A stretch of DNA of 64,000 nucleotides from Promethearchaeota archaeon (GCA_019058295.1 JAHPZI010000001.1:32001-96000), one strand, 5' to 3'; positions 1 to 17,258 are shown, counted from the stretch's first letter. Translations and numbers: made by a program. Notes: generated by a model not told the origin, from the sequence alone.

Positions 1-573
1 GCCATATGAGCCAGGAACAGAATGATCCACGTGAATAGGTATAATCTCTAAGCCTTTAATATCAATGATATTGCCAGTTCTAAAAAGTTTCCATTTTAAA
101 CCCGTATAAAAATTGTCCATTCGGAATCCCCTTGTGTCATAATGAGACAGTATTATTTTTTTAGTAGTTACACCGGTATAAATCGGGATATTACGATTTA
201 GTAACGTTATACCATAGTAATGATCTCTATGAGCATGAGAGATTAACAATCCATGGATTTTAGTTGGAGGATCAGTTTTATTTTTACACTCACCTACTTT
301 TTGCCCATGTCTCTGCTTTTTATGATTAAAGATATAATATTTTGAATAGAGATTTCTTAGTACTTCTCCTTTAGGGCGAGGAATCAATTTAGCTTTGAAA
401 AGGCTTTCTATATTCGAAGGAGCATCATAATTAAAAGATGGGTTGTATCGTTCAAAATTTATTCCAAAATCAATTAGTAAATTTACATCAAATCCTAAAT
501 CTTCTAAAAGAACACAATTTCCTCCGATCTCGTTGATTCCCCCCAATAAAGTTATTTTTAGTGTAGATTTCAT
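1..573 (-). CDS. MBL-fold metallo-hydrolase, RNase J-like (3' end runs off the window)
   Basis: Not in the ORF track. Hand translation from ATG at 573 gives MKSTLKITLLGGINEIGGNCVLLED...LIDFG...LISHAHRDHY...VDHSVPGSYG, with GGxxEIGGN, HxHxDH and DHS motifs. Confidence 0.8.
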   Translation of the reverse strand, partial: MKSTLKITLLGGINEIGGNCVLLEDLGFDVNLLIDFGINFERYNPSFNYDAPSNIESLFKAKLIPRPKGEVLRNLYSKYYIFNHKKQRHGQKVGECKNKTDPPTKIHGLLISHAHRDHYYGITLLNRNIPIYTGVTTKKIILSHYDTRGFRMDNFYTGLKWKLFRTGNIIDIKGLEIIPIHVDHSVPGSYG

Positions 574-738
574 TTTAAAATCTCCCTATCTCAATAAAAT
601 CTTAAAATAAATAATTAAAAATATTTTATATCAGACATATAGGTCAAAATTTTTTTTATAATATAATAGTCTGAATAGTTCTTAATAAAATTTTTATATC
701 ACAATTAAGAGGAGTCCTGAAAGTTATCCTTCAATATA

Positions 739-781
739 AATTTGGGAACTAAAAAAGCAGAAGAATGGAGGAATGCCTTGA
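739..781 (+). repeat. Left copy of 43-bp imperfect direct repeat (remnant of methyltransferase 5' end)
   Basis: aatttgggaactaaaaaagcagaagaatggaggaatgccttga matches 13337-13379 at 38/43 nt, with a 19-nt exact core aaaaaagcagaagaatgga. Confidence 0.85.
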
Positions 782-783
782 TA

Positions 784-3700
784 TTAGTTAACAATAGGTT
801 GAATTTTATCAAAAATTACGAGTGTTTTATTTAAGGATTTGAAGATCTCAGTAATGTTTTCCATAAATGCTTTATTATCTATGATTGGTCCATGACTTCC
901 AGGATTTCGGATTGGTGATGATAAAAAAGTAAAATATTGAATTTCTTCTATATCGGGCTTAGAAATTATTGATAATAATAATTTTTTTAATCTAAGAATA
1001 AAAGGATCTTGTTTTGGGTTTAAAATATCCTTTAATAAATAATTTATACTCCCCAAAGTCATATAATCTCCCTTCCATATTTCTTTAATTCCCCTTGGTA
1101 ATCTAATCCACTCATTCTTAGGAATCCTCGAATTTGGTGGATAAATCTTATATAATTCATCAAGAAAGTAAAGTGAAATTTTGGAGTGAAAAAGAGAAGC
1201 AAATCCATTAGTCAATTCTAAGAATATGATCCCTGTATTATCATTTAAACTATTAAAATTTTTAAGGTTTTTAATTAAATCATTAGCTAATATGAAATGT
1301 TTCAATGCATCTTTATCATGAACAATATTTAGATTTATTATCCCACTTATTTGGATATCCATAAAATCTCGTTTAGCTTTCATATATAAAGCAATTTCCA
1401 TATCTATATCTTTAAAGTATTTATAAGCTTCGTCATATATTTCTTGAGCTCTAATAAAATTTAACTTCAGTTCATACATTCTTGCTAAATTAGTTCTAAA
1501 AATTGAATTATTAGGGCTAAGAGAAATTGCTTGTTCAAATATAGGAATTGCTTTTTCAATCTCTTGAATATCACCATATATAGTTCCTATATTATTTAAT
1601 ATAGACCCTTTAAACTCTATTTTTTTTGTAATCCTAAATGCTTTATAAAAATATTTTATAGCGTCTCTAAAATATCCTAGATCAGCAATGGCTAAACCTA
1701 TATCACAATAAATCTTGGATTTCTTCTCATTATGTAATTCATTTATTTTTAAATCTTTAAAAAGATCATTAATCCTACGATTAAATTCCTCACCTTCAAA
1801 CCATATTCTTAAATTTTGAAAACATGACTTGATTATTGAATTAATTTTAAGATAACCTCCATTAGATTCCTCTTCATAAATTCTAAGAAGATTTGAACAT
1901 GCATCAGAGATTTTTCCTAAAATTAAATTGATAAGGACTAAATAATTACAATAATACAAATCATTTGGTCTAAAAAATAATGCATTCTTAAGATATTTAG
2001 AAGCTGATTTATAATCTTGATTATAAAAATATGGAAATGCAATAATCTCCATTGTGAGTCCTAGAAATTTTCTATCAATTGTCCATTCTGTAGAAAACTC
2101 GATTGTTTTTGATATTTCAATAGCTTTTTCAAAACTTGCCATTAATTGGATAAATAATATTTGATTTCCTTTTCTTTTTAAAAAATAGAAAAATTCCTTT
2201 TCTAGATAATCATCAATGCTCTGAAAATTATTTAAGATAAATTTTCTAATATCAAAATAAAATAAATAACTTTCATACAATGAAGGAATTAAAGGTTCTC
2301 TTTCAAAAACTTCAAGTGTCTCAAACTCAAACAAAGTTTTCTTAATTCTTCTTTCTTCATCATAATCTTCAGAAAATAACGAGTTGAGAGGCATCAAATA
2401 ATGTAATACTTCAAAAGGATTAATTAATTTATTCTTGAATAATTCGTCTCTGTTAAAATTTAATTTATTGATAGTCTCTTTTTCTTGTTGAAAATTTTTA
2501 TTAAACCTATAAATAATGCTCTTAATTACTTCTAATTTAACTTTAAAATATATGTTCTCTTCAGTCTCAACTAGTAAATTGAAAATTTCTATCGTAAAAT
2601 CAACATTTTCATTATCTCGCATTTTAGAACTAATTTCTCCAAATAAAAATAATAATTCTATTAAAATTCGATTCTGATGATTAAGCATAGATTTTAATTC
2701 TTCTTTTTTTTCTTTTAATTTAATTTTTAGATTTTGTAGAAAAGGATATTTAAGAATTAATATTTCTAATGCATTTGCGTAATCCTCAATGTTTATATAA
2801 GTTTTGCATAAATATTTGATTAAAATGAGATTATTGATGTTCTCATCACTATAGTTTGGAACTTCAACAAATATTTCGTTGTTTGATTCTTTTATTAACT
2901 TTTCAATTAAACCTTTAATTTCAGACAATAAGTCATATTTATGCCAGATGGGAAGATCTGATATAAAATCCTTTTTCTCATATAAGTTAGGATTAGAATT
3001 TAAGAATTCACATAGAGGCTCAACACCATAAAATTTATTTAAATAATCGATTTTATCTTGAACATTTAGAAAATTAAAATAGATGTAAGCAGCAATATTC
3101 ATAATTTTGCTTCTGATAAAGCTAATATCTATAAATGTTAATTTTTCTTTAATTAAATCTTGAAAATGTTCTAAATACTCTGAAATCTTCGAATGCAAAT
3201 GAGGATATTTTAAGTTATCTACAGTAAACTGTAAATCGTCACATAATGTAATATTTTTCCTCTCAGCTTCAATATAATCTAAAAAATATGGTTTTATATT
3301 CTTTATTACTTCTCTTGTTGCATTTAACAGATAATATTGAGCCTTTCGATTTTCTTTATAGGGGGAGGACCCCCAGAAAAGGAAATATCCTTGATTATAC
3401 CCAGATATAAATTCAAGAAGCATTGATTCTACAGCAACAGCTTCTTGAATTTTACCTTGCTCCATGAATTTCCTCCATATACGATAAACCCAAATGTTTT
3501 TTTGCTCACTTTCTCTAAAAACTGTATTAAAAAAGTAGTTTAATCGTCTCTCATTGATCAAATTAAATTTAATTTCACTTAAGTATAGATCATAATCCTC
3601 TCTTTGTTTAGACTTGATCTCCGAAAATTTAGTGAAAATTACCTTATCTTCAAAAAATTTTAAAATTTCTCTAGTTATTTTTCTCAGATATTCTGATTTT

Positions 3701-4104
3701 TCATTTAGTTCCTTATAAATAGTTAATCTAAAACCAGGATCTAATCGAAATTTCTTTAGAAAAAGATTTTTTAATAAGAAATCTATTGCTATATGATTAT
3801 AATCTACATTTTTTTGGTTTTCTATTTCCTTAATATATTCAATCCTCTGTTTTAAAACAAACCTCTCTAATAAAAAGAATTTATCTTTTATACTAAAAGG
3901 GCTCGCTTTATTATCTTCCAAAAACGGATCAAGAAGTTTATGTGATAATTTTGAGATCGATGGAGACTTCTTCTTCTTTCTTGCCTTCTTATGTGTATTC
4001 TGCTCTTTATTGAATTTCTGGGATTCATGTGAACCCAAATTATGTTTTTGAAATTTATAACCTCTGCTTTTGGTAGGTATTTTAATTTTTTCTTTTTTTG
4101 CCAT
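784..4104 (-). CDS. Large TPR protein with C-terminal HEPN-like domain
   Basis: TPR motifs (GLAIADLGYFRDAIKYFYKAF, LNNIGTIYGDIQEIEKAIPIFEQAISLSPNN); C-terminus MTLGSINYLL...IRNPGSH (RxxxxH). Confidence 0.7.
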   Translation of the reverse strand: MAKKEKIKIPTKSRGYKFQKHNLGSHESQKFNKEQNTHKKARKKKKSPSISKLSHKLLDPFLEDNKASPFSIKDKFFLLERFVLKQRIEYIKEIENQKNVDYNHIAIDFLLKNLFLKKFRLDPGFRLTIYKELNEKSEYLRKITREILKFFEDKVIFTKFSEIKSKQREDYDLYLSEIKFNLINERRLNYFFNTVFRESEQKNIWVYRIWRKFMEQGKIQEAVAVESMLLEFISGYNQGYFLFWGSSPYKENRKAQYYLLNATREVIKNIKPYFLDYIEAERKNITLCDDLQFTVDNLKYPHLHSKISEYLEHFQDLIKEKLTFIDISFIRSKIMNIAAYIYFNFLNVQDKIDYLNKFYGVEPLCEFLNSNPNLYEKKDFISDLPIWHKYDLLSEIKGLIEKLIKESNNEIFVEVPNYSDENINNLILIKYLCKTYINIEDYANALEILILKYPFLQNLKIKLKEKKEELKSMLNHQNRILIELLFLFGEISSKMRDNENVDFTIEIFNLLVETEENIYFKVKLEVIKSIIYRFNKNFQQEKETINKLNFNRDELFKNKLINPFEVLHYLMPLNSLFSEDYDEERRIKKTLFEFETLEVFEREPLIPSLYESYLFYFDIRKFILNNFQSIDDYLEKEFFYFLKRKGNQILFIQLMASFEKAIEISKTIEFSTEWTIDRKFLGLTMEIIAFPYFYNQDYKSASKYLKNALFFRPNDLYYCNYLVLINLILGKISDACSNLLRIYEEESNGGYLKINSIIKSCFQNLRIWFEGEEFNRRINDLFKDLKINELHNEKKSKIYCDIGLAIADLGYFRDAIKYFYKAFRITKKIEFKGSILNNIGTIYGDIQEIEKAIPIFEQAISLSPNNSIFRTNLARMYELKLNFIRAQEIYDEAYKYFKDIDMEIALYMKAKRDFMDIQISGIINLNIVHDKDALKHFILANDLIKNLKNFNSLNDNTGIIFLELTNGFASLFHSKISLYFLDELYKIYPPNSRIPKNEWIRLPRGIKEIWKGDYMTLGSINYLLKDILNPKQDPFILRLKKLLLSIISKPDIEEIQYFTFLSSPIRNPGSHGPIIDNKAFMENITEIFKSLNKTLVIFDKIQPIVN

Positions 4105-4162
4105 TATATATTATTTCTTTTTTTCTTTGATAAATTCTTTTAATTCCATATTTATTTCACTT

Positions 4163-4684
4163 TTATTTATCTAGTTTTAACATCGTTTTTAGCAAATTCT
4201 CATTCGACTTAATATCGTCTAAGCCTTCCATAAATACTTCAGCAAATCTGAATTTATTCGAGATCCAAAACTTTGAGCATATATCTTGTTTAATATTATC
4301 TTCAATATATAAAATGTGTTCATTTATATCTATATTAAAAGGATTACCATAATCAAACGCCTTTTTTTCAATCCTCTCTCTTAGGGTTGATAATAATTTA
4401 GTTTTACAGAGAAAAATCAAAACAGAATCCCCTGTTAGTTCTAAAGCTCTTTTTATAGCAAATTTATGACATCCGGCACCTGTAAATTCCAATATAACGT
4501 TATTATTATCCTCAATATTTTTAAGAAATTCTTGAAGACAAAAATACTCTTCAGAAATCTTTTCTTTAAGATATTTTCTACGAATTTCATCAATTTGAAT
4601 GAATTTAAATCCAGTAAGCTCTTGAATTATCTTACCTAAAGTGGTTTTCCCACTCCCAATATTCCCGATAATTAAAATTCTCAT
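4163..4684 (-). CDS. P-loop nucleotide/shikimate kinase-like protein
   Basis: N-terminal ILIIGNIGSGKTT Walker A followed by IQIDEIRR; size and layout of the NMP-kinase fold. Confidence 0.75.
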   Translation of the reverse strand: MRILIIGNIGSGKTTLGKIIQELTGFKFIQIDEIRRKYLKEKISEEYFCLQEFLKNIEDNNNVILEFTGAGCHKFAIKRALELTGDSVLIFLCKTKLLSTLRERIEKKAFDYGNPFNIDINEHILYIEDNIKQDICSKFWISNKFRFAEVFMEGLDDIKSNENLLKTMLKLDK

Positions 4685-6168
4685 TTATTAAACACCAAAA
4701 CCTTCTTTATATTTTGAATTGCCTTTTCTGAAACATTGCATTGATTTCTCAAAAATTCTTCAGTTCCTATATATTCATTATCTATTATTTCAAAGATAAA
4801 TTCAATATATTTTCTATTAGTATCACTATAAGATAATAGATAATCTTGTAGTATTAATTCACGGTCTACACCAAGAAGGTCCAATAATAATGCAATTATA
4901 ACGCCTGTACGATCTTTTCCACCCTCGCAATGAATAATTAATCTATTCTTAGAAGCATTACTAAAGTATTTTTCAAAAATTAATCCTAATTCATCTCTAA
5001 AATCTTTCAAAAAAGCATAGTAAAAATTTTCATAAGGTTTATCAGGAATATAAGTGTTAACTTCTATCTTAAATGGAATATTAATTACATAATTCTCTTT
5101 TAACTCATCATCATAAAAATTATTGTATTTAATATAATTCTCAAGTTCATCCTTGCAGCGAATATCCAATATGTGTTTAATTTTCTTTTCCTTTAGAAAT
5201 TCCAATATCATTCCACTATTATTTTTAGATAATGAGGCACTTCTAAATATTAAACCTTCTTTAATTTTTATTTCATCTGAAAAATTGTTCGGGATTAAAG
5301 CAATATCTCTTAAATTTTTAAAAAGGAGATATTTTTCATCAACTTTTTTAAAGAAATTTTGAATATCCGAGAAGATGGCTTTTCCTAAATTAAATTTATC
5401 CATTCCTTTCTTTAAAACACCTAAAAACAAATTTTTTAAATTGTCTCTCTGATCAATCATATCATATTTTCTTAATCCTGCGGAGGCTCTGTAATATTTA
5501 TTTCGCAAATCCCAGTTATCAATAATATCTGTAGTAAATCGACTTGGTTGGTACAAATTATAATGTTTATCCTCTACCATAGCTTTTAATTCTGCTAGTT
5601 TGTAAAAAGAAAGGGAATAATTCATGTAAGCTCGATATTCATCATCTTTAGCAAGATTAGCAAGACACCTTTCAAAATAGTAAATAAATTTATAGATTTT
5701 TTCCTTAAACAGGGCTTTTAATCTATTAATATCGCTAAGATCAATCCAGTTTTCTAGATATATCTGTTTTACTCTGTTATTTTTATCATATCCAATTGCT
5801 TCTATAGGATTTGTTATCATGGATTCTGCTATATAAATGATATCTTCTTTTGCTTCTTCGATCTTCTTAATTCCTATTTCTATTTTAATAAATGTTTTTT
5901 CTGTGAATATTATCCATTTATTATATATTTCAAACTGATTTGAAATTCCCTCATCATCATTATTTAATATTTCAATTACAATTTGCTTAATTTCTTTTTC
6001 TATATTCTCATTAGAGAACTCGTTCAGATAGATGAAGAGATCGAGGTCTGAATAGTAATCATGAGATTTTCGAGCAAAACCCCCATATAATACAATTCCT
6101 TCTATAAATTCCAAACTTTTTATTCCTTCTTCGATCTTATACGCAATTCTATCAATAATCGGGTTCAC
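4681..6168 (-). CDS. Fusion of Pol-beta-type nucleotidyltransferase, helical domain and PTP-like Cys phosphatase
   Basis: LYGGFARKSHDYYSDLDL (NTase DxD); NLRDI...IFRSA...ILDIR and HCEGGKDRTG (CX5R). Confidence 0.8.
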   Translation of the reverse strand: MNPIIDRIAYKIEEGIKSLEFIEGIVLYGGFARKSHDYYSDLDLFIYLNEFSNENIEKEIKQIVIEILNNDDEGISNQFEIYNKWIIFTEKTFIKIEIGIKKIEEAKEDIIYIAESMITNPIEAIGYDKNNRVKQIYLENWIDLSDINRLKALFKEKIYKFIYYFERCLANLAKDDEYRAYMNYSLSFYKLAELKAMVEDKHYNLYQPSRFTTDIIDNWDLRNKYYRASAGLRKYDMIDQRDNLKNLFLGVLKKGMDKFNLGKAIFSDIQNFFKKVDEKYLLFKNLRDIALIPNNFSDEIKIKEGLIFRSASLSKNNSGMILEFLKEKKIKHILDIRCKDELENYIKYNNFYDDELKENYVINIPFKIEVNTYIPDKPYENFYYAFLKDFRDELGLIFEKYFSNASKNRLIIHCEGGKDRTGVIIALLLDLLGVDRELILQDYLLSYSDTNRKYIEFIFEIIDNEYIGTEEFLRNQCNVSEKAIQNIKKVLVFNK

Positions 6169-6169
6169 T

Positions 6170-7945
6170 TTACACGTTCCTCTCTAATTTTTCGTCTTTT
6201 ATTTTTTCAGCAATAATCAATGAGATTATTCCTTCATTTTTCTTTATGGTATTTATTTTAAATCCCGATTTTTGGAGTAGATCTTTGAATTCTCTATAAT
6301 TTCTTTCTTTACTTCCCACATTTACAAGTAAATTAAAATTCAATGAAACTCCAATATCAAAATTAGGATCTTCAGGAATAATCATTTCAAACAATAACAA
6401 TTTTCCATTTTGCTCTAAAGCACTATGGACTGTTTTCAAAATAGTGACTGCCTTTCCATCATCCCAATCATGGATTACTCTACTCATTATGATAATATCT
6501 GTTTTAAAGGGTATATTTCTAAAAAAATCTCCTGGGATATATTCAATTTTCTTTCTAATTGAATCTATATGAGCGAAATTCTTAACACTTTCAATTACCG
6601 ATGCTCTTTCAAACAAAATTCCTTTTTGAATATTTTGATTTTTAAGTAGTATCTTTTCTAATAGGTGCCCTATTCCTCCACCTATATCAGCAATTACTTT
6701 CGCATTGGTGAAATCATATAGATCGATAATTTTGTCATAATCTGAGGAGTACGCCTTCATCGATTTATTAAAAACTAACCCTTTATCTTCATATGTATCA
6801 AAATAATCAAATATTTCTTTTCCGAAAATTTCCTTAAATTGAGGTTTATTTGTCTTTAAAGCTTCTGTCAATTTACTCATTGCAAGATAATGTTCTTCTC
6901 CCCACATCTTAGCAGCATATTTAAGAGTTTCTGGATATTCTTCAGTAAGTAGATTTCCGAGATATTTTAATTTATATACACCATGAATCTCTTCGATAAA
7001 ATCCCAGATCTTTAACACTTGAATAATCAATTTTAATGATGAATAAGGGAGGTTTGTTGTTTCTAATAAATTTTTAAAATTATACTTATTATTTCTAATA
7101 TGATCTAAAATTTCCAATTCAACTATTGAATGAATAATTTGAGTTTTCCAATAGCCAACTAACATCTTCATTAATTTTTTTCTTAAGAACGATTGGATAT
7201 TATGTGAATTTTGATTATCAATCTTTTGAATGGTTTTTCCTTTTTCATCAATAATTAATTTTTCTCTATTGTGCTTACAAACAAGTGCAAATCCATTATA
7301 GAAAGGTTCAATCCATTTATATCGCTCTTGATAAAGTGCTTCTCCATTCTTATTTATATGAAAAGCCCCTCGATTATCTTTTGCAGTCGCAAAACCTTTA
7401 TGGAAAACTCCTAACTCAATAAATTTCTTTTCATGTAAAAAGTTGCCAAATTTATCAATATGTTGAGCAAATCCATCATATCCATAAACAACCGCAATAC
7501 CATATTTGTAATCCCCAACATATTTATATTTTTCATTATAAGCTAATGATCCATCTTTCTTAATATGAAAAAAATCACCACCTATATCTCTAACAGGACA
7601 CCTACCCTCTTGAAAATTACCTACCCATTCATATCTTTTTTCATACTTTGGTTTACCATTTAAACCAATGTGATACCATCCTGAATTATCAACAACAGCA
7701 GCGATTCCCTCATAGAATCCGAATGATTTGATGAATCTTTCTCCATATTGTGGATCCCCTTCAAAAGTGATGTGATATGCCCCAGTATTATCTATCACTG
7801 CGGCAACACCAGGAGGATGGAAACTCAAAACACAATCAAATGTTTTTTCATATAACGGCATTCCCTTATAGAGATGATGAGTCTCATCTTTTGAAATTTC
7901 TATTTTTTCTAAACTAATTTTTTCCTTCTCAGTTATACTACTCAT
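6170..7945 (-). CDS. WG-repeat (beta-propeller) / O-methyltransferase fusion
   Basis: About six repeats of type FxEGxAxVxDxxGxxHIxxxG; C-terminal dimerisation domain, IADIGGGIG, GDFF and SRVIHDWDD of the COMT-like family. Confidence 0.85.
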   Translation of the reverse strand: MSSITEKEKISLEKIEISKDETHHLYKGMPLYEKTFDCVLSFHPPGVAAVIDNTGAYHITFEGDPQYGERFIKSFGFYEGIAAVVDNSGWYHIGLNGKPKYEKRYEWVGNFQEGRCPVRDIGGDFFHIKKDGSLAYNEKYKYVGDYKYGIAVVYGYDGFAQHIDKFGNFLHEKKFIELGVFHKGFATAKDNRGAFHINKNGEALYQERYKWIEPFYNGFALVCKHNREKLIIDEKGKTIQKIDNQNSHNIQSFLRKKLMKMLVGYWKTQIIHSIVELEILDHIRNNKYNFKNLLETTNLPYSSLKLIIQVLKIWDFIEEIHGVYKLKYLGNLLTEEYPETLKYAAKMWGEEHYLAMSKLTEALKTNKPQFKEIFGKEIFDYFDTYEDKGLVFNKSMKAYSSDYDKIIDLYDFTNAKVIADIGGGIGHLLEKILLKNQNIQKGILFERASVIESVKNFAHIDSIRKKIEYIPGDFFRNIPFKTDIIIMSRVIHDWDDGKAVTILKTVHSALEQNGKLLLFEMIIPEDPNFDIGVSLNFNLLVNVGSKERNYREFKDLLQKSGFKINTIKKNEGIISLIIAEKIKDEKLERNV

Positions 7946-8987
7946 TTAAACACTCTCCAAGATTTTTTAATGGTCTTCTCATGTTGCATTGTTTACAAAC
8001 CTGATAAGTACCCCAATTGTTTATTAAATGTCTGTAGCTATCACTATTCCATAGTTCCATGAAATTCATTTCTTTTACATTACCAAAGTATCCCAGTGTC
8101 CTTCTTAAATAGTCTGGAGCACAACATACGTTAAAGGTTCCATCCCAGGCTATCCAAGCTTCCCTCCCTAAGAATGGACATATAAAATTTTCTGGAAATA
8201 TATTATTTTTAGAGTTATTTGAAATAGAATATATATTATCGAGTTTAATTTTTTTACCATTTTTTAAAATGGAAGTATCAGCGATTCTTTTCATTTTTTC
8301 AACGGTTTTATTCCATTTTTTTATAGATTCTTTGTCTTTCAATAATGATTGATTTTCTAATTCAGGATGAGTAATCCATAGATGATGCCCCTTAAAGCGA
8401 TCAATATTCAATTCTATTGCCAATTTAAGGAGTCCTAGTATCTCATCTAAATTCTTTTCCATAAATGTTGCCTGAAAAGTTATAGTTGGAAAATTTATCG
8501 CCTTCTGTCTAATATCGTCTCTAATATTAATAAATTTTTTAATATTAGAGATCTCTTTTTCAAAATTTATTCCTTCCATAATTTGTTCATTGATACATTT
8601 TGAGGCACCATTAATAGAAATTTTAATATCGCTAATAATTGGTAAAATTAATTTTCCCCATTTTTCAGCACCTAATCTTGGAAAAGTACCGTTTGTAGTT
8701 AAATTCATTTTAAGATTATAACTTTTTACTAGATTTATTAGATCTATAAATTTGTCATAAAGGAGTGGCTCGCCCATAGTACTGGGTATTATTTCCTTTA
8801 AGCCATAATTTACTAAATCTTGAACGACCTCTTTAATAGTTTTAAATTCCATTACTCTAAAATCCTTATGCTTATTAAAATTATATTTACTATGCTCCTC
8901 ACACATCATACAATGAAGATTACACTGATCAGGATTTGTATCGAATGTAATTCTCCAGGGTACCTTTAATTTTTCTTTAATGAACAA
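7938..8987 (-). CDS. Radical SAM protein with SPASM/twitch domain
   Basis: CNLHCMMC (CX3CX2C), MGEPLL, TTNGT; C-terminal CP...DGTFNVCC...GNV...WNS...CKQC. Confidence 0.9.
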   Translation of the reverse strand: MFIKEKLKVPWRITFDTNPDQCNLHCMMCEEHSKYNFNKHKDFRVMEFKTIKEVVQDLVNYGLKEIIPSTMGEPLLYDKFIDLINLVKSYNLKMNLTTNGTFPRLGAEKWGKLILPIISDIKISINGASKCINEQIMEGINFEKEISNIKKFINIRDDIRQKAINFPTITFQATFMEKNLDEILGLLKLAIELNIDRFKGHHLWITHPELENQSLLKDKESIKKWNKTVEKMKRIADTSILKNGKKIKLDNIYSISNNSKNNIFPENFICPFLGREAWIAWDGTFNVCCAPDYLRRTLGYFGNVKEMNFMELWNSDSYRHLINNWGTYQVCKQCNMRRPLKNLGECLNE

Positions 8988-10254
8988 CGAATCGAACCTC
9001 CTCTCTTTTTAGAAGTTTATAATATAATTCCTCGATTTCTTTGACATCTTCTTGAATTGAGCGCACATAAGTTTTTTGTGAATATATATCAATGAGTTCT
9101 GCATTTTCAATGAAAATATTCATCTTTTCTATTAAATCTTCTACATTCCCGGGCTCAAATAATAACCCATTCTTTTTATGTGAAACTAGTTCTGCCATCC
9201 CTCCTAAGTTGCTCGTAATTACTGGAATCTTAGCTAAAAAGGCTTCATGAATTACTAAAGGTGAATTTTCATACCAAATTGACGGAACTACTAAAATATC
9301 AATATTAGATAGAATTTTTGAAATTTCTTTATAATGATAACCACCCATAAAATGAATCGCGTTATTTTTACACCGATTTTTAAGATAAATTGATGAGCTT
9401 GGCATTTTCCCATAAATATTAAGCTCTGATTTAGAATGATCAACATTATTGAAGGCTTCAATTAATTGAGCAAGTCCTTTAACAGGAATAATTCTCCCTA
9501 AAAATCCGAACCGAATTTTTCCATTGGGTTGTTTTTTTACTCCATTAATTATTTGTTTATCAAAACCGTAATCCATATAGATAATTTTATCTTCTGGAAT
9601 TCCGTAATTAATATATGTATTGCGAAGGAATCTGGAAGGAGCGATAAATAAATCGATCTGGTTATTTATTTTAGAAAATGAAGTTAACCATCTCTTAATC
9701 TCAAGTTTTGCTTGTAACTCTGATGTGAAGTATTTCATATTACAATTTATACATTTTTCGAAGCTTGGTCCTGAACAGAGTGAATAATCATCTTGAATTA
9801 ACTGGCCTCTAATGCAGAGCATCCAAAAATCATGAAGCGTGAAAATAATGGGAATCCCATTTTTTTTTATGATTTTTATGATTTGAATAGTAAGATGGCT
9901 TAAATGGTCTATATGAACAATATCGGGGCTAATTTCCTTCAATTTTTCTCTAAATACATCTGCCATTTTAAAATCGATATATTTACTACGAAAAGTATAA
10001 ACTCTTCCAGGTTTATTAACCCGAATTATCGTTAAACCATCTTCAATCGTCTCAGTTATTTCATAAGGTTTTTGATATTCATCTTCTATACGAGTAAAAA
10101 TAATAACATTATGCTTTTTTGCAAGCTCACGGCATTTGTTCCAAGCATAAACTTCAGAACCTGCCATATAATAAGGGGGGAATCCGTGAATGATAATTAA
10201 GATTTTTAATCTTTTTTTCTTATTATTTATCTTTTGGTAGTTTTTATAATTCAA
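8977..10254 (-). CDS. Glycosyltransferase family 4 (GT-B)
   Basis: HGFPPYYMAGSE, TLHDFW, GRIIPVKG, VVPSIWYENSPLVIHEA. Confidence 0.9.
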   Translation of the reverse strand: MNYKNYQKINNKKKRLKILIIIHGFPPYYMAGSEVYAWNKCRELAKKHNVIIFTRIEDEYQKPYEITETIEDGLTIIRVNKPGRVYTFRSKYIDFKMADVFREKLKEISPDIVHIDHLSHLTIQIIKIIKKNGIPIIFTLHDFWMLCIRGQLIQDDYSLCSGPSFEKCINCNMKYFTSELQAKLEIKRWLTSFSKINNQIDLFIAPSRFLRNTYINYGIPEDKIIYMDYGFDKQIINGVKKQPNGKIRFGFLGRIIPVKGLAQLIEAFNNVDHSKSELNIYGKMPSSSIYLKNRCKNNAIHFMGGYHYKEISKILSNIDILVVPSIWYENSPLVIHEAFLAKIPVITSNLGGMAELVSHKKNGLLFEPGNVEDLIEKMNIFIENAELIDIYSQKTYVRSIQEDVKEIEELYYKLLKREEVRFVVH

Positions 10255-10260
10255 TTCTTA

Positions 10261-10331
10261 TCATCTCCTTGAAAACTTACTCAACATTTAATCGGTTGAG
10301 GGTAAGGAGGTGCCCTCCTTGGAGTAAGTTT
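10261..10331 (-). promoter_or_regulatory. Putative structured 5' leader (three-helix junction) next to the ribosome-binding site
   Basis: Inverted repeats aaacttactc/gagtaagttt (10273-10282/10322-10331), aaggagg/cctcctt (10304-10310/10314-10320) and ctcaac/gttgag (10280-10285/10295-10300). GC-rich patch in AT-rich surroundings. Confidence 0.5.
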
Positions 10332-10386
10332 ATCTTGTTATTTTACACTTATTACTAGAATTAAGCAACAATTTATATTTATATTT

Positions 10387-10454
10387 AACTTTTTTTTTCA
10401 TATTTGAATAAAAAAGTTTATTAAGAAAATTTACCATTTTTTATTTGGTAAATT
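10387..10454. promoter_or_regulatory. Two operator-like palindromes in the divergent promoter
   Basis: 14-bp arms at 10387-10400/10405-10418 (1 mismatch); perfect 9-bp arms aatttacca/tggtaaatt at 10428-10436/10446-10454, abutting the ATG. Confidence 0.4.
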
Positions 10455-11105
10455 ATGAAAACATGTCAAATTGCTACAGTTGGGGAAAATATCGAATGGA
10501 TTTTGAAAGGTTTATTGATATTTAATGCAAATAAGCTTATACTTATTTCCACATCAAATCCAGAATTTTTAAAAAAAATAATTGATATAAAGAATAGATT
10601 AATAGATCCTGAGTTTGAATTTAAACCTTTAGAGATTGAAGAGATTATAATTGAAAGCGAGAACCCATTTGAATTTATAAAAATACTAAAAAAAATAATC
10701 TTGGAAAATGGTAGAAAAGGATTCCAAATTGAAGTGAATTCTACAGCGGGTCTTACTATTTGGCAAACTTTAAGCTATTTTATTGCTATTCAATTAAGAG
10801 AATTTGTAAGAAACTATTTTATTATTAATAAACAAAAGGGTGATGCATTTTCACTACCCTTATTAATTCTAAATAAAACTGAACAGACTTTTTTAGACTT
10901 ATTAGGAGAAAAGACTCTAAATATAGAAGATTTAAAAACAGAATATGAGAATTTTAAAAAAAAGGAAGTATCAGTTGGATTAATTTCAAAATATTTAACA
11001 AAATTAAAAGAAAAGAAATTAATTCAAGAATCTAAAGTTGAGAGATTTAAATTTTTTAGATTAACAGAACTAGGAAGGATTTATAATCTTAATGTAATAA
11101 TATAA
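10455..11105 (+). CDS. CARF-like + winged-HTH transcriptional regulator (Csa3/DUF6293-like)
   Basis: IATVG...KLILIS...IEVNSTAG Rossmann-like N-terminus; C-terminal SVGLISKYLTKLKEKKLI...FRLTELG wHTH. Confidence 0.7.
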   Translation: MKTCQIATVGENIEWILKGLLIFNANKLILISTSNPEFLKKIIDIKNRLIDPEFEFKPLEIEEIIIESENPFEFIKILKKIILENGRKGFQIEVNSTAGLTIWQTLSYFIAIQLREFVRNYFIINKQKGDAFSLPLLILNKTEQTFLDLLGEKTLNIEDLKTEYENFKKKEVSVGLISKYLTKLKEKKLIQESKVERFKFFRLTELGRIYNLNVII

Positions 11106-11134
11106 ATGAATATGATTAATATTTTATAAAAAAA

Positions 11135-13045
11135 CTAAGGTTCTAAAGTACAAAGATTTAATAACAGATTGGTATCTTCATTAATTAATTTATTCTCAAT
11201 ACTCTTTATTGTTTCTTCACTTAGATCTATTTTATTTCCTCTTATTATATCTTGTATTTTATTCTTACCTCCATGAGAACAGCTATTTCTAATTGCAACA
11301 AAATTATATGATTTTGCCCCACATTTAAATCTACACTCTAAGAAATTTAAAATTTCTTTAATATGTTTTAGATTTTTTTTTCCAATTAAGACTCTGAATA
11401 ATTTAAATGGTTTGAGATATGTTTCAGGAATATGATGAAACGAATTAATGTTATATATTGACGAAAGGATATAATAAATTTTACCTAATGTAGGTAATAC
11501 TCTAAATTTAATATATCTTTTTAGGTGTTTGAGTGTTTTATTAAATTCCCTGTCAATTTTCCATAAACCATAAGTATTTATATCATCATTAAGCTCATTT
11601 AATATTTTTTCATGGTAGTTAACAAAAAATTTAATACGTAATTCGCATTCAATGGCATCAGAAATTTTATTAATACAGGATCGATAATCATTAGGCATTT
11701 TATCTAATGTTTCTTTAAACATAATTAAATGATCTTGCGTTTCTTCATCAAAATTAGTAAAGCATTCGTCATTTAGAGTTTTTAACCATACTCCTCTATA
11801 ATATTCTCTCTCTTTTTTTATTTCTTCTCCTGTTTTTTTTTCTTGTTTTGTAGATTCTAAAGTAGCATTAGCAATATTTTCACTTATATCTGAATTATGT
11901 AGTTTTTTACAAATTTCTACAACATTTTCAGAAGTTTTTTCAACTTCCTTAAGTTTAATTTCAAAAGGTCTATTTTCTAAAATATCATTGATTCTTCTTA
12001 TTGTCTCTGGTAAATCGATGAACTTTTTTTTATAATATTCTTTCATTTTGGGATTTTTAATTGAATTCAGAATTAATTCATAAGCGGTTAAAGAATTTGA
12101 ATAATTACGAAAGGCTTCTGAATATGATTCAGCATCATGGTATAGTTCGCCTAGAGCTTTATAAGTTTCAGCCATTCCATGATAATATTTGATTTTGATG
12201 GCGATTTTTAATGATTCGTCAAAATTTTTATAAGATTTATTAAGTTGATTAATTTTTTGATATATTTGACCAATTAATCTTAAAATTTCAGATTTCATTT
12301 TTAAATTCTCAATTTTATCTTTTATTTTTAGAAGCTCTTCAAGATGTTTATAAGATTCTTCATATTTCTCTTGAAGATATAATGCTCTGATTTTATTTCT
12401 CAAGGCATAAGCCTTATTACTTAAATCTCTATTTTTTATAGATAAATTATAAGCCTTTTCACTATATTCAATTGCTTTCTTAAATATATTTTTCTTTGTT
12501 AAAACTGAAGAAATCATATTATAAATTCCTGAAAATATATAATTTGGTGCTCCAACTTCTTCATATAATTTGAGAGCAGTTTCCAAATAACTTAATGACC
12601 TATCATAATCTCCTAAAACTTCATAATAAACTCCAGTAGAATTCTTAATTTTAGCAATTAAATATTGATCTTTTAATTTTTCAGCTATATCCAATGCACT
12701 CATTAAACATTCATAATACTCATCAAACTCTAATAAATATTGGTGTACATTTGCTAAATGATTTAAATATCGAGGCATCTTATTATATAGCTTTAATTTC
12801 TTAATCATTTTTAGAGCATTAATATATTTTTCCTTTGCTTCTTCATATTTACCCATTCTATGAAGTATTCTTCCTATATTTTTAGTTGATTCAGCTATCA
12901 ATTCAGGATCATTGATTTTAATTGCCAACTGTTCGCATTTTAAAAAGATTTTATATGCATCAGAAATTTCTCCATCAAAATACTTTTTTTCTGCTGTTTT
13001 TGTACACTTATCAAATTCTTTATTTATATCCATTTCAATCAACAA
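11135..13045 (-). CDS. TPR protein with C-terminal HEPN-like domain
   Basis: About eight MalT-like TPRs; C-terminal DYRSCINKISDAIECELR...TLGKIYYIL...IRNSCSH. Confidence 0.75.
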   Translation of the reverse strand: MLIEMDINKEFDKCTKTAEKKYFDGEISDAYKIFLKCEQLAIKINDPELIAESTKNIGRILHRMGKYEEAKEKYINALKMIKKLKLYNKMPRYLNHLANVHQYLLEFDEYYECLMSALDIAEKLKDQYLIAKIKNSTGVYYEVLGDYDRSLSYLETALKLYEEVGAPNYIFSGIYNMISSVLTKKNIFKKAIEYSEKAYNLSIKNRDLSNKAYALRNKIRALYLQEKYEESYKHLEELLKIKDKIENLKMKSEILRLIGQIYQKINQLNKSYKNFDESLKIAIKIKYYHGMAETYKALGELYHDAESYSEAFRNYSNSLTAYELILNSIKNPKMKEYYKKKFIDLPETIRRINDILENRPFEIKLKEVEKTSENVVEICKKLHNSDISENIANATLESTKQEKKTGEEIKKEREYYRGVWLKTLNDECFTNFDEETQDHLIMFKETLDKMPNDYRSCINKISDAIECELRIKFFVNYHEKILNELNDDINTYGLWKIDREFNKTLKHLKRYIKFRVLPTLGKIYYILSSIYNINSFHHIPETYLKPFKLFRVLIGKKNLKHIKEILNFLECRFKCGAKSYNFVAIRNSCSHGGKNKIQDIIRGNKIDLSEETIKSIENKLINEDTNLLLNLCTLEP

Positions 13046-13336
13046 AAAAGGGATAAATTATTGAATTTTTTTCATTGATAAATTAAAATATACATATTTG
13101 TAATTTAATATTTCGTAGATATATTTAGTTCTACAAAACAAGTGTTCTTTAAGAGCTGAATTTATTTATATATCCATAATTTATCAAAGGTAAATTTTTT
13201 TTAGAATAATTAGATTACGGATTATTACTAATAAATTCTATGATAAGTTTATCTTTTCTATTTAATTTGATGGAATCTTATTTATGAAATAAAGAAATAG
13301 TGCGCAAGATTTTATAAATTAAGAGAAAAAAACATT

Positions 13337-13379
13337 AATTTCGGGACCAAAAAAGCAGAAGAATGGAAGAATGGCTTGA
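13337..13379 (+). repeat. Right copy of 43-bp direct repeat, overlapping the methyltransferase start
   Basis: aatttcgggaccaaaaaagcagaagaatggaagaatggcttga; 38/43 identical to 739-781. Confidence 0.85.
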
Positions 13380-13905
13380 AACAGAGGGCAAGTTAGTACT
13401 TAGAGAAATTGGAATTAAAGAAGGGATGACAGTATTAGATTTTGGAAGTGGTTCGGGGGTTTATACGATGATAAGTTCAAAAATAGTAGGGATAAAGGGA
13501 GAGGTCTATGCGCTTGATAGTGATAAGGCGTCCTTGAACAAACTAAGCAACGAGCTCGAAGCCTCAAAAATTAAAAATGTAAAGATTATCAAGGGTCCCA
13601 AGCAGATTGCCCTTCCATTTGAGAAGGAATATTTTGACTTTTTTTTATTATATGATGTATTTCATTTATTAGACAAGGATAATCGGGATACTGTGTTAAG
13701 AGAGGCATATCGAGTGTTGAAAAGAGAGGGGATATTATCGTATCACGCAACGCATATAGGCAGCTATGATACGAATTTAGAAGACGTGCAACAGCAAATT
13801 AAACTGCACGGATTTCGATTAAAGGAAGAGTTTCGGAGACCTATGTTTCATTGGAGATGGATTGCGGAGGGCTTAGTCTTTAATTATGGAAAACAAATAG
13901 GTTAA
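13363..13905 (+). CDS. Class I SAM-dependent methyltransferase
   Basis: VLDFGSGSG, VYALD, RVLKREG. Confidence 0.85.
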   Translation: MEEWLETEGKLVLREIGIKEGMTVLDFGSGSGVYTMISSKIVGIKGEVYALDSDKASLNKLSNELEASKIKNVKIIKGPKQIALPFEKEYFDFFLLYDVFHLLDKDNRDTVLREAYRVLKREGILSYHATHIGSYDTNLEDVQQQIKLHGFRLKEEFRRPMFHWRWIAEGLVFNYGKQIG

Positions 13906-15981: not shown

Positions 15982-16536
15982 TTATACTTCCATTGATTGA
16001 TTTGCTGTGGTTATTTTTCTATAATCTATGATGGTGCTTACTAATGATTCAAATACTTCATTGACGTTATATCCTGTTTTCGAGGAGACTTTTAAATATC
16101 CGCTTATATTATTGTTTTCGACAAACTGACGAACGTATTCATCATCAACCATGATAGACTCTATTAAATCATATTTAGATCCCAGAAGAAGAATAGGGAG
16201 TGTGGGATCATCTTTACGGATAAGATTTATCCATTTAGGTAAATTCATAAAACTTTTGAAGATTGTTAAATCAAACATTAAAAATGCACCTGCGGCACCT
16301 TTTACAAAATCATCGAGCATGAATCTGAACCTTTCTTGTCCGCCAAAGTCCCATAATTGTAATGAGCAGACGGGACCCTCTTTTAAAGTAAGGACTTTAT
16401 GAAGAATATCAGTACCGATGGTCATCTTCGCTTCATATAAGAATTCCCCTTCAATATAGCGGTGTAGAATAGTAGTTTTCCCTACACCACCATCACCAGC
16501 AATAATAATTTTAAAGACTAGACTGGGATTAATCAT
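15982..16536 (-). CDS. Rab-like small GTPase (paralog 1)
   Basis: GDGGVGKT, TIG, WDFGGQERF, SKYD, SSKTG. Confidence 0.9.
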   Translation of the reverse strand: MINPSLVFKIIIAGDGGVGKTTILHRYIEGEFLYEAKMTIGTDILHKVLTLKEGPVCSLQLWDFGGQERFRFMLDDFVKGAAGAFLMFDLTIFKSFMNLPKWINLIRKDDPTLPILLLGSKYDLIESIMVDDEYVRQFVENNNISGYLKVSSKTGYNVNEVFESLVSTIIDYRKITTANQSMEV

Positions 16537-16703
16537 TAAATTTCAATAATTTAATTTGATTTTTAAAATTTCCATTTATACAACATTAGAATTATATGTA
16601 TAAAAATTATGAATAATTTAAATAAGTTTTAGATTTGTTTATTTATTAAAAAAAGCTAAAGTTCTTATTAAAGATCTTATAGCTTCCTTTAGGGAGGAGT
16701 AGT

Positions 16704-17258
16704 TCAAACTTCCATTGATTGATCTGCTGTGATTAAATGTCTATATTCTATGATAGTGTTTACTAAAGATTCAAATACTTCATTGACGTTATATCCCGTT
16801 TTCGAGGAGACTTTCAAATATCCGCTAATATGATTGTTTTCGACAAACTCGAGAACTTCTTCATCATCCACACAGATAGAATCTAATAAATCATATTTAG
16901 AACCTAGAAGAAGAATAGGGAGGGTTGGATCATCCTTACGGACAATTTTTATCCATTTAGGTAAATTAAAAAAACTTACAGGGTTAGTTAAATCAAACAT
17001 TAAAAATGCCCCCGCAGCGCCGTTTACAAAACTATCGAACATGAATCTGAACCTTTCTTGTCCACCAAAGTCCCATAATTGTAATGAGCAGATGGGTCCT
17101 TCTTTTAAGCTAAGGACTTTATGAAAAATATCAGCACCGATGGTCATCTTCGAATCAAATAAGAATGTACCATTAACATAGCGGTGGAGCATAGTAGTTT
17201 TTCCTACACCACCATCCCCACCAATAATAATTTTAAAGATAAGACTAGGATTAATCAT
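16704..17258 (-). CDS. Rab-like small GTPase (paralog 2)
   Basis: Same G1-G5 motifs; tandem copy offset 722 nt from paralog 1. Confidence 0.9.
   Translation of the reverse strand: MINPSLIFKIIIGGDGGVGKTTMLHRYVNGTFLFDSKMTIGADIFHKVLSLKEGPICSLQLWDFGGQERFRFMFDSFVNGAAGAFLMFDLTNPVSFFNLPKWIKIVRKDDPTLPILLLGSKYDLLDSICVDDEEVLEFVENNHISGYLKVSSKTGYNVNEVFESLVNTIIEYRHLITADQSMEV

What the first reader, a model, noticed from the sequence alone, without database searches (positions are those of the whole stretch)
739..13379. Repeat-bounded island: CARF-regulated biosynthetic operon bracketed by two TPR-HEPN proteins (candidate new Asgard defence system)
Seen in sequence: a direct repeat enclosing TPR-HEPN, kinase, NTase-phosphatase, WG-methyltransferase, rSAM-SPASM, GT4, a divergent CARF-wHTH and a second TPR-HEPN. 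Established: CARF domains sense cyclic or oligo-nucleotide messengers; RxxxxH HEPN domains are typical abortive-infection RNases; TPRs act as viral-protein sensors in Avs-type systems; prokaryotic viperin loci pair a radical SAM enzyme with nucleotide kinases. Inference: an inducible system that makes a glycosylated or methylated nucleotide-like molecule (antiviral or signalling), backed up by sensor-RNases. I do not recognise this combination as a named system.
Basis: partly seen in the sequence, partly recalled or inferred. Interest (0 to 1): 0.9.

Follow-up and report, generated by a model that had tools for sequence, protein, structure and literature searches.

The report
Riboswitch-led sugar-modifying cassette in Asgard defences
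An Asgard archaeon carries, at the edge of a cluster of antiviral genes, a mobile set of sugar-modifying enzymes related to an unexplained Wolbachia phage gene cluster, controlled here by a nucleotide-sensor-type regulator and an undescribed switch-like RNA, which suggests an inducible chemical defence whose product is still unknown.

Summary
The genes, domains and 49-nt repeat are real. The invariant core (GT4, BtrN-like twitch radical SAM, WG-repeat domain) is not new. It is the UC3/UC4 core of the Wolbachia phage WO Undecim Cluster, seen in about 100 loci here and noted before by this scan on other DNA. It is not a viperin.

In one Lokiarchaeia subclade the core is joined by a divergent Csa3-fold CARF-wHTH (9 of 10 loci) and a convergent TPR-HEPN (TPR2, 6 of 10), among defence genes. 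TPR1 is exchangeable cargo, so 'bracketed by two TPR-HEPN' is local. The repeat does not delimit the conserved unit.

The finding missed a structured leader RNA (10262-10333, minus strand). It is a three-way junction whose loop pairs with the ribosome-binding site. It occurs in 14 loci, has 12 of 19 stem pairs covarying, has no Rfam match, and was found only at the head of this operon.

Best reading: a doubly gated pathway making a decorated sugar or nucleoside-like small molecule for defence, backed by a HEPN RNase (confidence 0.45). Product, ligands and antiviral activity are inferred, not shown.

The parts
733..781 (+). Left copy of 49-nt direct repeat; decayed duplicate of the 5' end of the methyltransferase gene at 13363 (att-like scar, inferred)
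   Evidence: only the first ~16 nt are kept in close relative L049
784..4104 (-). TPR1: 1106-aa helical/TPR protein with C-terminal Rx4H (HEPN-like); exchangeable defence cargo
   Evidence: slot holds other effectors in L049, L050, L155, L156, L157
4163..4684 (-). P-loop small-molecule kinase; accessory
4681..6168 (-). Pol-beta/MNT nucleotidyltransferase fused to a Cx5R phosphatase; replaced by a histidine phosphatase in other loci
6170..7945 (-). WG-repeat domain (near-invariant) fused to a natural-product-type O-methyltransferase; UC4 homologue
7938..8987 (-). Radical SAM with four-Cys twitch domain (C270, C288, C331, C334), BtrN-like; UC3 C-terminal homologue
8977..10254 (-). GT4 glycosyltransferase; UC3 N-terminal homologue
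10262..10333 (-). Leader RNA: three-way junction (P1 10322-10331 with 10273-10282), P2 loop anti-SD 10304-10309 pairing with SD 10265-10270; candidate translational riboswitch
10380..10425 (.). Conserved back-to-back BRE/TATA-like elements, possible wHTH operator (inferred)
10455..11105 (+). Csa3-fold CARF-wHTH regulator; motif-2 Arg replaced by Thr in this copy
11135..13045 (-). TPR2: TPR array plus C-terminal domain with invariant RNxxSH (HEPN-like); conserved companion of the CARF gene
13331..13379 (+). Right copy of the repeat; holds the start of the intact class I methyltransferase gene (13363-13905)

Best explanation
A mobile biosynthetic cassette that makes a decorated sugar or nucleoside-like small molecule used in defence. 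GT4 joins an NDP-sugar to a phosphorylated acceptor. The twitch radical SAM oxidises, epimerises or decarboxylates the sugar. The phosphatase unmasks the product and the O-methyltransferase caps a hydroxyl. The kinase and nucleotidyltransferase most likely give self-protection or on/off tagging. In this Lokiarchaeia subclade output has two gates: the CARF-wHTH controls transcription in response to a nucleotide signal, and the leader RNA hides or frees the ribosome-binding site, probably on binding a pathway metabolite. TPR2-HEPN is a linked sensor-RNase back-up; TPR1 is interchangeable cargo. Shown: anatomy, homology, co-occurrence, RNA structure by covariation, defence neighbours. Inferred: all chemistry, both ligands, RNase activity, antiviral role.
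For: GT4 in 104 and WG in 100 of 110 rSAM loci. Accessory slots swap like tailoring enzymes: O-methyltransferase and carbamoyltransferase were never found together, and histidine phosphatase (30 loci) and NTase-phosphatase (28) share one locus. Epimerase, UDP-glucose dehydrogenase and NTP-transferase are frequent. Nearest solved relatives: BtrN and natural-product O-methyltransferases. CARF fold. Leader RNA 94.7% paired, 12 of 19 pairs with double changes. The 32 kb upstream encodes DrmMI/DrmD-like, McrB-like, GmrSD-like and Tiamat-like genes. Relatives lie beside PglZ, Schlafen, HEPN_AbiV, NYN, OLD, TIR, sacsin/NOV and toxin-antitoxin genes. Precedent: lanthiphage clusters in defence islands (10.1101/2024.06.26.600839).
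Against: No product or activity is known for any homologue. Many non-Asgard copies sit among housekeeping genes, on plasmids or in prophages, and defence enrichment was not measured against a background. CARF is missing at all five other intact loci of the same family found by genome search. No Cas10 or SMODS cyclase was found in the 79%-complete genome. No exporter is present. An invariant WG repeat domain and a Cx5R phosphatase would also fit a protein substrate.
Confidence: 0.45

Rival explanations
1. The cassette modifies a protein or peptide. The WG repeats bind the target; GT4, rSAM and methyltransferase build a modified glycan on it; the NTase and phosphatase switch it reversibly.
For: WG domain near-invariant. 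Small repeat-rich peptide genes precede GT4 in L035, L036, L184, L185, L186. The phosphatase resembles PtpB.
Against: No peptide gene between CARF and GT4 in the window, nor called in the other type-1 loci. The same peptide type occurs beside CARF genes without the core. The methyltransferase is of the small-molecule class and the rSAM is BtrN-like.
Confidence: 0.2
2. The cassette makes an antimicrobial or host-acting metabolite for competition or symbiosis and sits in defence islands only because these are insertion hotspots; CARF and TPR2 form a separate hitch-hiking module.
For: Undecim copies in endosymbionts carry an ABC transporter, PhyH and threonine aldolases. Many loci lack defence neighbours. 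CARF homologues occur without the core.
Against: CARF shares a conserved divergent promoter with GT4 in 9 loci with 57-76% GT4-level divergence range. The Lokiarchaeia form has no exporter.
Confidence: 0.2
3. The cassette alters a surface glycan or lipid and so blocks virus adsorption.
For: GT4, epimerase and UDP-glucose dehydrogenase are glycan-type genes, and LPS/EPS roles were proposed for Undecim (PMC9203015).
Against: No flippase, polymerase or GT arrays around the inspected loci. The same core occurs across Asgard archaea, Bacteroidota-like loci and Wolbachia, whose envelopes differ (own knowledge).
Confidence: 0.1

Closest known systems
Undecim Cluster of Wolbachia phage WO (WD0611-WD0621; UC3 = GT-rSAM fusion, UC4 = WG-methyltransferase) and its Rickettsia/Arsenophonus plasmid copies; PMC9203015
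   Same: rSAM 47-51% identical, GT4 35-39%, WG-methyltransferase 30-35%, same gene order; product unknown in both
   Different: GT4 and rSAM unfused; no epimerase, PhyH, ABC transporter, aldolases or UDP-glucose dehydrogenase; adds NTase-phosphatase, kinase, CARF-wHTH, leader RNA and TPR-HEPN
Csa3/CasR CARF-wHTH regulators (PMC8844856)
   Same: Fold and domain order (top Foldseek hit 2wte, E 2.4e-8); N-x-T-x3-R motif kept in 26 of 29 close homologues
   Different: No cas genes nearby; Phe10-equivalent is Glu; motif Arg is Thr in this copy; ligand unknown
BtrN (butirosin) and BlsE (blasticidin S; PMC3715490) twitch radical SAM sugar-modifying enzymes
   Same: Four-Cys twitch spacing; best PDB hit BtrN (E 3e-5); weak BlsE model hit (E 2e-6)
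   Different: Distant only; no aminocyclitol synthase or aminotransferase in the operon
Prokaryotic viperin plus kinase loci
   Same: rSAM beside a P-loop kinase in a defence island
   Different: The rSAM is not a viperin; it has a twitch domain and works with a GT4
Translational riboswitches with a Shine-Dalgarno-sequestering pseudoknot (e.g. preQ1-II/III, SAM-II, cobalamin-II; own knowledge)
   Same: 5' leader, loop pairing with the ribosome-binding site, near-isoenergetic alternative folds
   Different: No Rfam 15 match; different junction; archaeal; ligand untested

Membership tests
Undecim Cluster | Homologues of UC3 (GT4, rSAM) and UC4 (WG-methyltransferase) in order | tested here: met
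Undecim Cluster | Eleven-gene set (epimerase, PhyH, ABC, aldolases, UDP-glucose dehydrogenase) within phage WO | tested here: not met
Prokaryotic viperin | Strong full-length match to pVip models, no twitch domain | tested here: not met
   E 1e-10 partial against 1e-86 for L180 viperin
Csa3-like CARF-wHTH | CARF Rossmann fold plus C-terminal wHTH | tested here: met
Csa3-like CARF-wHTH | cA4-binding motifs 1 and 2 | tested here: inconclusive
   motif 2 Arg kept in most homologues, lost here; motif 1 partly kept
Csa3-like CARF-wHTH | Ligand binding and promoter control | not testable with these tools
   needs biochemistry
HEPN RNase (TPR2) | Conserved Rx4H motif | tested here: met
   R586, N587, S590, H591 invariant in six homologues at 25-43% identity
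HEPN RNase (TPR1, TPR2) | HEPN fold or profile match | tested here: inconclusive
   no Pfam hit; Atlas leads only; fold lists filled by TPRs
Avs/AVAST | STAND NTPase between effector and TPR sensor | tested here: not met
   no NTPase domain or PADLOC Avs hit in TPR1 or TPR2
Riboswitch | Conserved covarying structure in the 5' leader, tied to one gene set | tested here: met
Riboswitch | Expression platform (SD sequestration) | tested here: met
   loop-tail pairing kept with G-U and double changes; alternative folds; computational only
Riboswitch | Direct, protein-free ligand binding | not testable with these tools
   needs in-line probing
Integrative element with att sites | Terminal direct repeat overlapping a target gene | tested here: met
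Integrative element with att sites | Own recombinase, or an empty site in relatives | tested here: inconclusive

The most novel reading that the evidence does not exclude
An inducible chemical antiviral system of Asgard archaea. A nucleotide alarm read by the CARF regulator turns on synthesis of a new sugar or nucleoside-like antiviral, a new class of archaeal riboswitch senses the product or a precursor, and a TPR-HEPN RNase provides abortive back-up. Its product would also reveal what the Wolbachia Undecim Cluster makes.
Probability: 0.3. Interest if true: 0.92.

Novelty: new variant of a known kind. Interest (0 to 1): 0.72.

Why it matters
The leader RNA is a concrete, testable riboswitch candidate in archaea, where few are known (own knowledge), and its ligand would point to the pathway's product. 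The compact Lokiarchaeia operon is a tractable stand-in for the unexplained Undecim core of phage WO. A defence role would add a chemical arm to Asgard immunity and give a non-CRISPR function to a Csa3-like regulator.

Tried and rejected
Viperin identity: rejected. Avs membership: rejected, no STAND domain. TPR1 as a fixed member: rejected. Repeat as the boundary of the conserved unit: rejected; the MBL and Smr genes outside it recur beside the core in L049 and L156. Empty-site search in 40 relatives: nothing found. No RNA holder listed. Complex prediction of rSAM with the WG domain: no verdict. Fold searches of TPR2 did not test its C-terminal domain. Rfam scan: chance hits only. Weak RNA-model hits near 30 bits fall in or across coding sequence and were treated as chance. 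The genome-contig scan with one protein found no true relative. The rSAM tree is a quick tree only; no donor is claimed. The CARF classification paper was not held.

Full report
Observation. The eight ORFs and their domains are as described, with intact catalytic motifs. The region is GC-poor (0.262, against 0.321 to the right and 0.307 for the genome), but so are the 32 kb upstream (0.275). The host is Lokiarchaeia-like by inference: named close homologues are Asgard, and two same-family genomes carry contigs whose lengths match those of Lokiarchaeia records.

The repeat. It is real and unique in the genome. The right copy contains the start of an intact methyltransferase gene and the left copy is a decayed duplicate, as expected of an old insertion scar (inference). 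No recombinase lies near it and no empty site was found. A close relative at the same site (L049, flanks 93-100% identical) keeps only about 16 nt of the left copy and has a 1603-aa STAND-like gene where TPR1 lies. MBL and Smr genes outside the repeat recur with the core elsewhere. So the repeat marks history, not the functional unit.

The core. The rSAM finds relatives at 47-51% identity on Rickettsia and Arsenophonus plasmids and in Wolbachia phage WO. These are UC3/UC4 of the Undecim Cluster, whose functions are only predicted (PMC9203015). Across 110 loci, GT4 is in 104 and the WG domain in 100 (some loci are near duplicates). The rest is modular: O-methyltransferase or carbamoyltransferase, histidine phosphatase or NTase-phosphatase, with optional sugar-supply genes. 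The rSAM has invariant twitch cysteines and BtrN as nearest solved relative. The methyltransferase is of the natural-product class. This pattern fits small-molecule tailoring better than glycan assembly. The core is patchy: 13 of 301 genomes of the phylum and 9 of 154 of the order.

CARF and TPR genes. Ten closely related loci were examined (window, L049, L050, L053, L155, L156, L157, L162, L163, L166). Nine have the divergent CARF-wHTH and six have TPR2 convergent on it. These loci were reached through close homologues of the core or the regulator, so the counts describe one subclade. Five other intact loci of the family, found by genome search, lack an adjacent CARF. The regulator folds like Csa3, but this copy has lost the motif-2 arginine needed for cA4 binding in Csa3, and neither Cas10 nor a SMODS cyclase was found in the incomplete genome. 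TPR2 keeps an invariant RNxxSH and was not found full-length in 153 other genomes of the order. TPR1 homologues (39-45%) in four genomes lie away from the core, beside a type III CRISPR locus, a true viperin or CARF regulators. The slot downstream of the kinase is filled in relatives by a STAND-like protein, Schlafen proteins, an AbiV-type HEPN fused to the kinase, or another Rx4H protein.

Defence context. Upstream of the window lie DrmMI/DrmD-like, McrB-like, GmrSD-like and Tiamat-like genes. Among non-Asgard loci, six of ten hand-picked neighbours hit PADLOC at E below 1e-20 (type I RM, BrxC, BrxL, GmrSD-like, PDC-S02, RdrA). This sample is biased, and many loci sit among housekeeping genes. 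None of those inspected looks like a surface-polysaccharide locus.

The leader RNA. Between the promoter and GT4 lies a three-way junction whose P2 loop is complementary to the Shine-Dalgarno sequence just after P1. A model from seven loci recovered two unseen loci and, blind, a hit in genome G330 that proved to lie directly before GT4 with no CARF beside it. In ten sequences 97% of cells pair, nine pairs change on both sides, and loop-SD pairing is complete through G-U changes. A second subtype precedes small ORFs upstream of GT4. With 14 sequences, 12 of 19 stem pairs change on both sides, far above shuffled and slid controls (alignment fitted to the model, sequences related). The loop-tail helix shows double changes at two positions, though it shrinks to four pairs in two sequences. 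In 150 genomes of the order, strong hits occurred only in six genomes, each at the head of this operon. None were found in the non-Asgard loci tested or in other Asgard families. Open and SD-hidden folds are close in energy in several copies. Rfam has no match.

Verdict. This is a new variant of a known but unexplained cassette, not a self-contained repeat-bounded system with two fixed TPR-HEPN members. The additions that matter are the CARF/TPR2 module, the defence setting and a well-supported riboswitch-like leader. A defensive small-molecule pathway is the best reading (0.45). Earlier notes of this scan reached the Undecim link on other DNA; I reached it before reading them.

Noticed in passing
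G000:C1:1-32000 (L183, L047), just left of the window: A defence island: two DrmMI/type IIG-like methyltransferases, two DrmD-like helicases, McrB-like, GmrSD-like and a 2497-aa Tiamat-like gene.
   Followed up: partly
window 1-573 (gene runs off the left end), L156, L166, L182: An MBL-fold hydrolase gene, often with a small Smr gene, recurs beside the core or beside TPR1 in unrelated loci.
   Followed up: partly
L180:4494-9478: TPR1 homologue directly downstream of a true viperin, with a divergent wHTH-CARF regulator.
   Followed up: partly
L179:1-12970: TPR1 homologue and wHTH-CARF regulator beside a type III-A CRISPR-Cas locus with Csx1 and an array.
   Followed up: partly
L035, L184, L185, L186 upstream of GT4: Subtype-2 leader RNA is followed by a 70-90-codon ORF and then a ~40-aa peptide gene with NRSNQxNPNN repeats and a terminator-like hairpin.
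   Followed up: partly
L160:3754-3882, L036 near 7980-8100: A different 41-42-aa basic peptide gene lies beside CARF-wHTH genes, with or without the core.
   Followed up: no
L157:6376-7932: The operon's kinase is fused to an AbiV-type HEPN domain.
   Followed up: no
L036, L056, L156, L162: A ~265-aa protein without Pfam match, possibly a further glycosyltransferase, accompanies the core.
   Followed up: partly
L057, L124, L127, L129, L133, L139: In low-GC bacterial-type loci a divergent sigma-54 activator occupies the position of the CARF regulator.
   Followed up: partly
window 15982-17258: Tandem duplicated 184-aa small GTPase genes (86% identical over 300 nt).
   Followed up: no
L048:4790-5323 (G009): The same-genus homologue of the 13363 methyltransferase contains two stop codons.
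   Followed up: no
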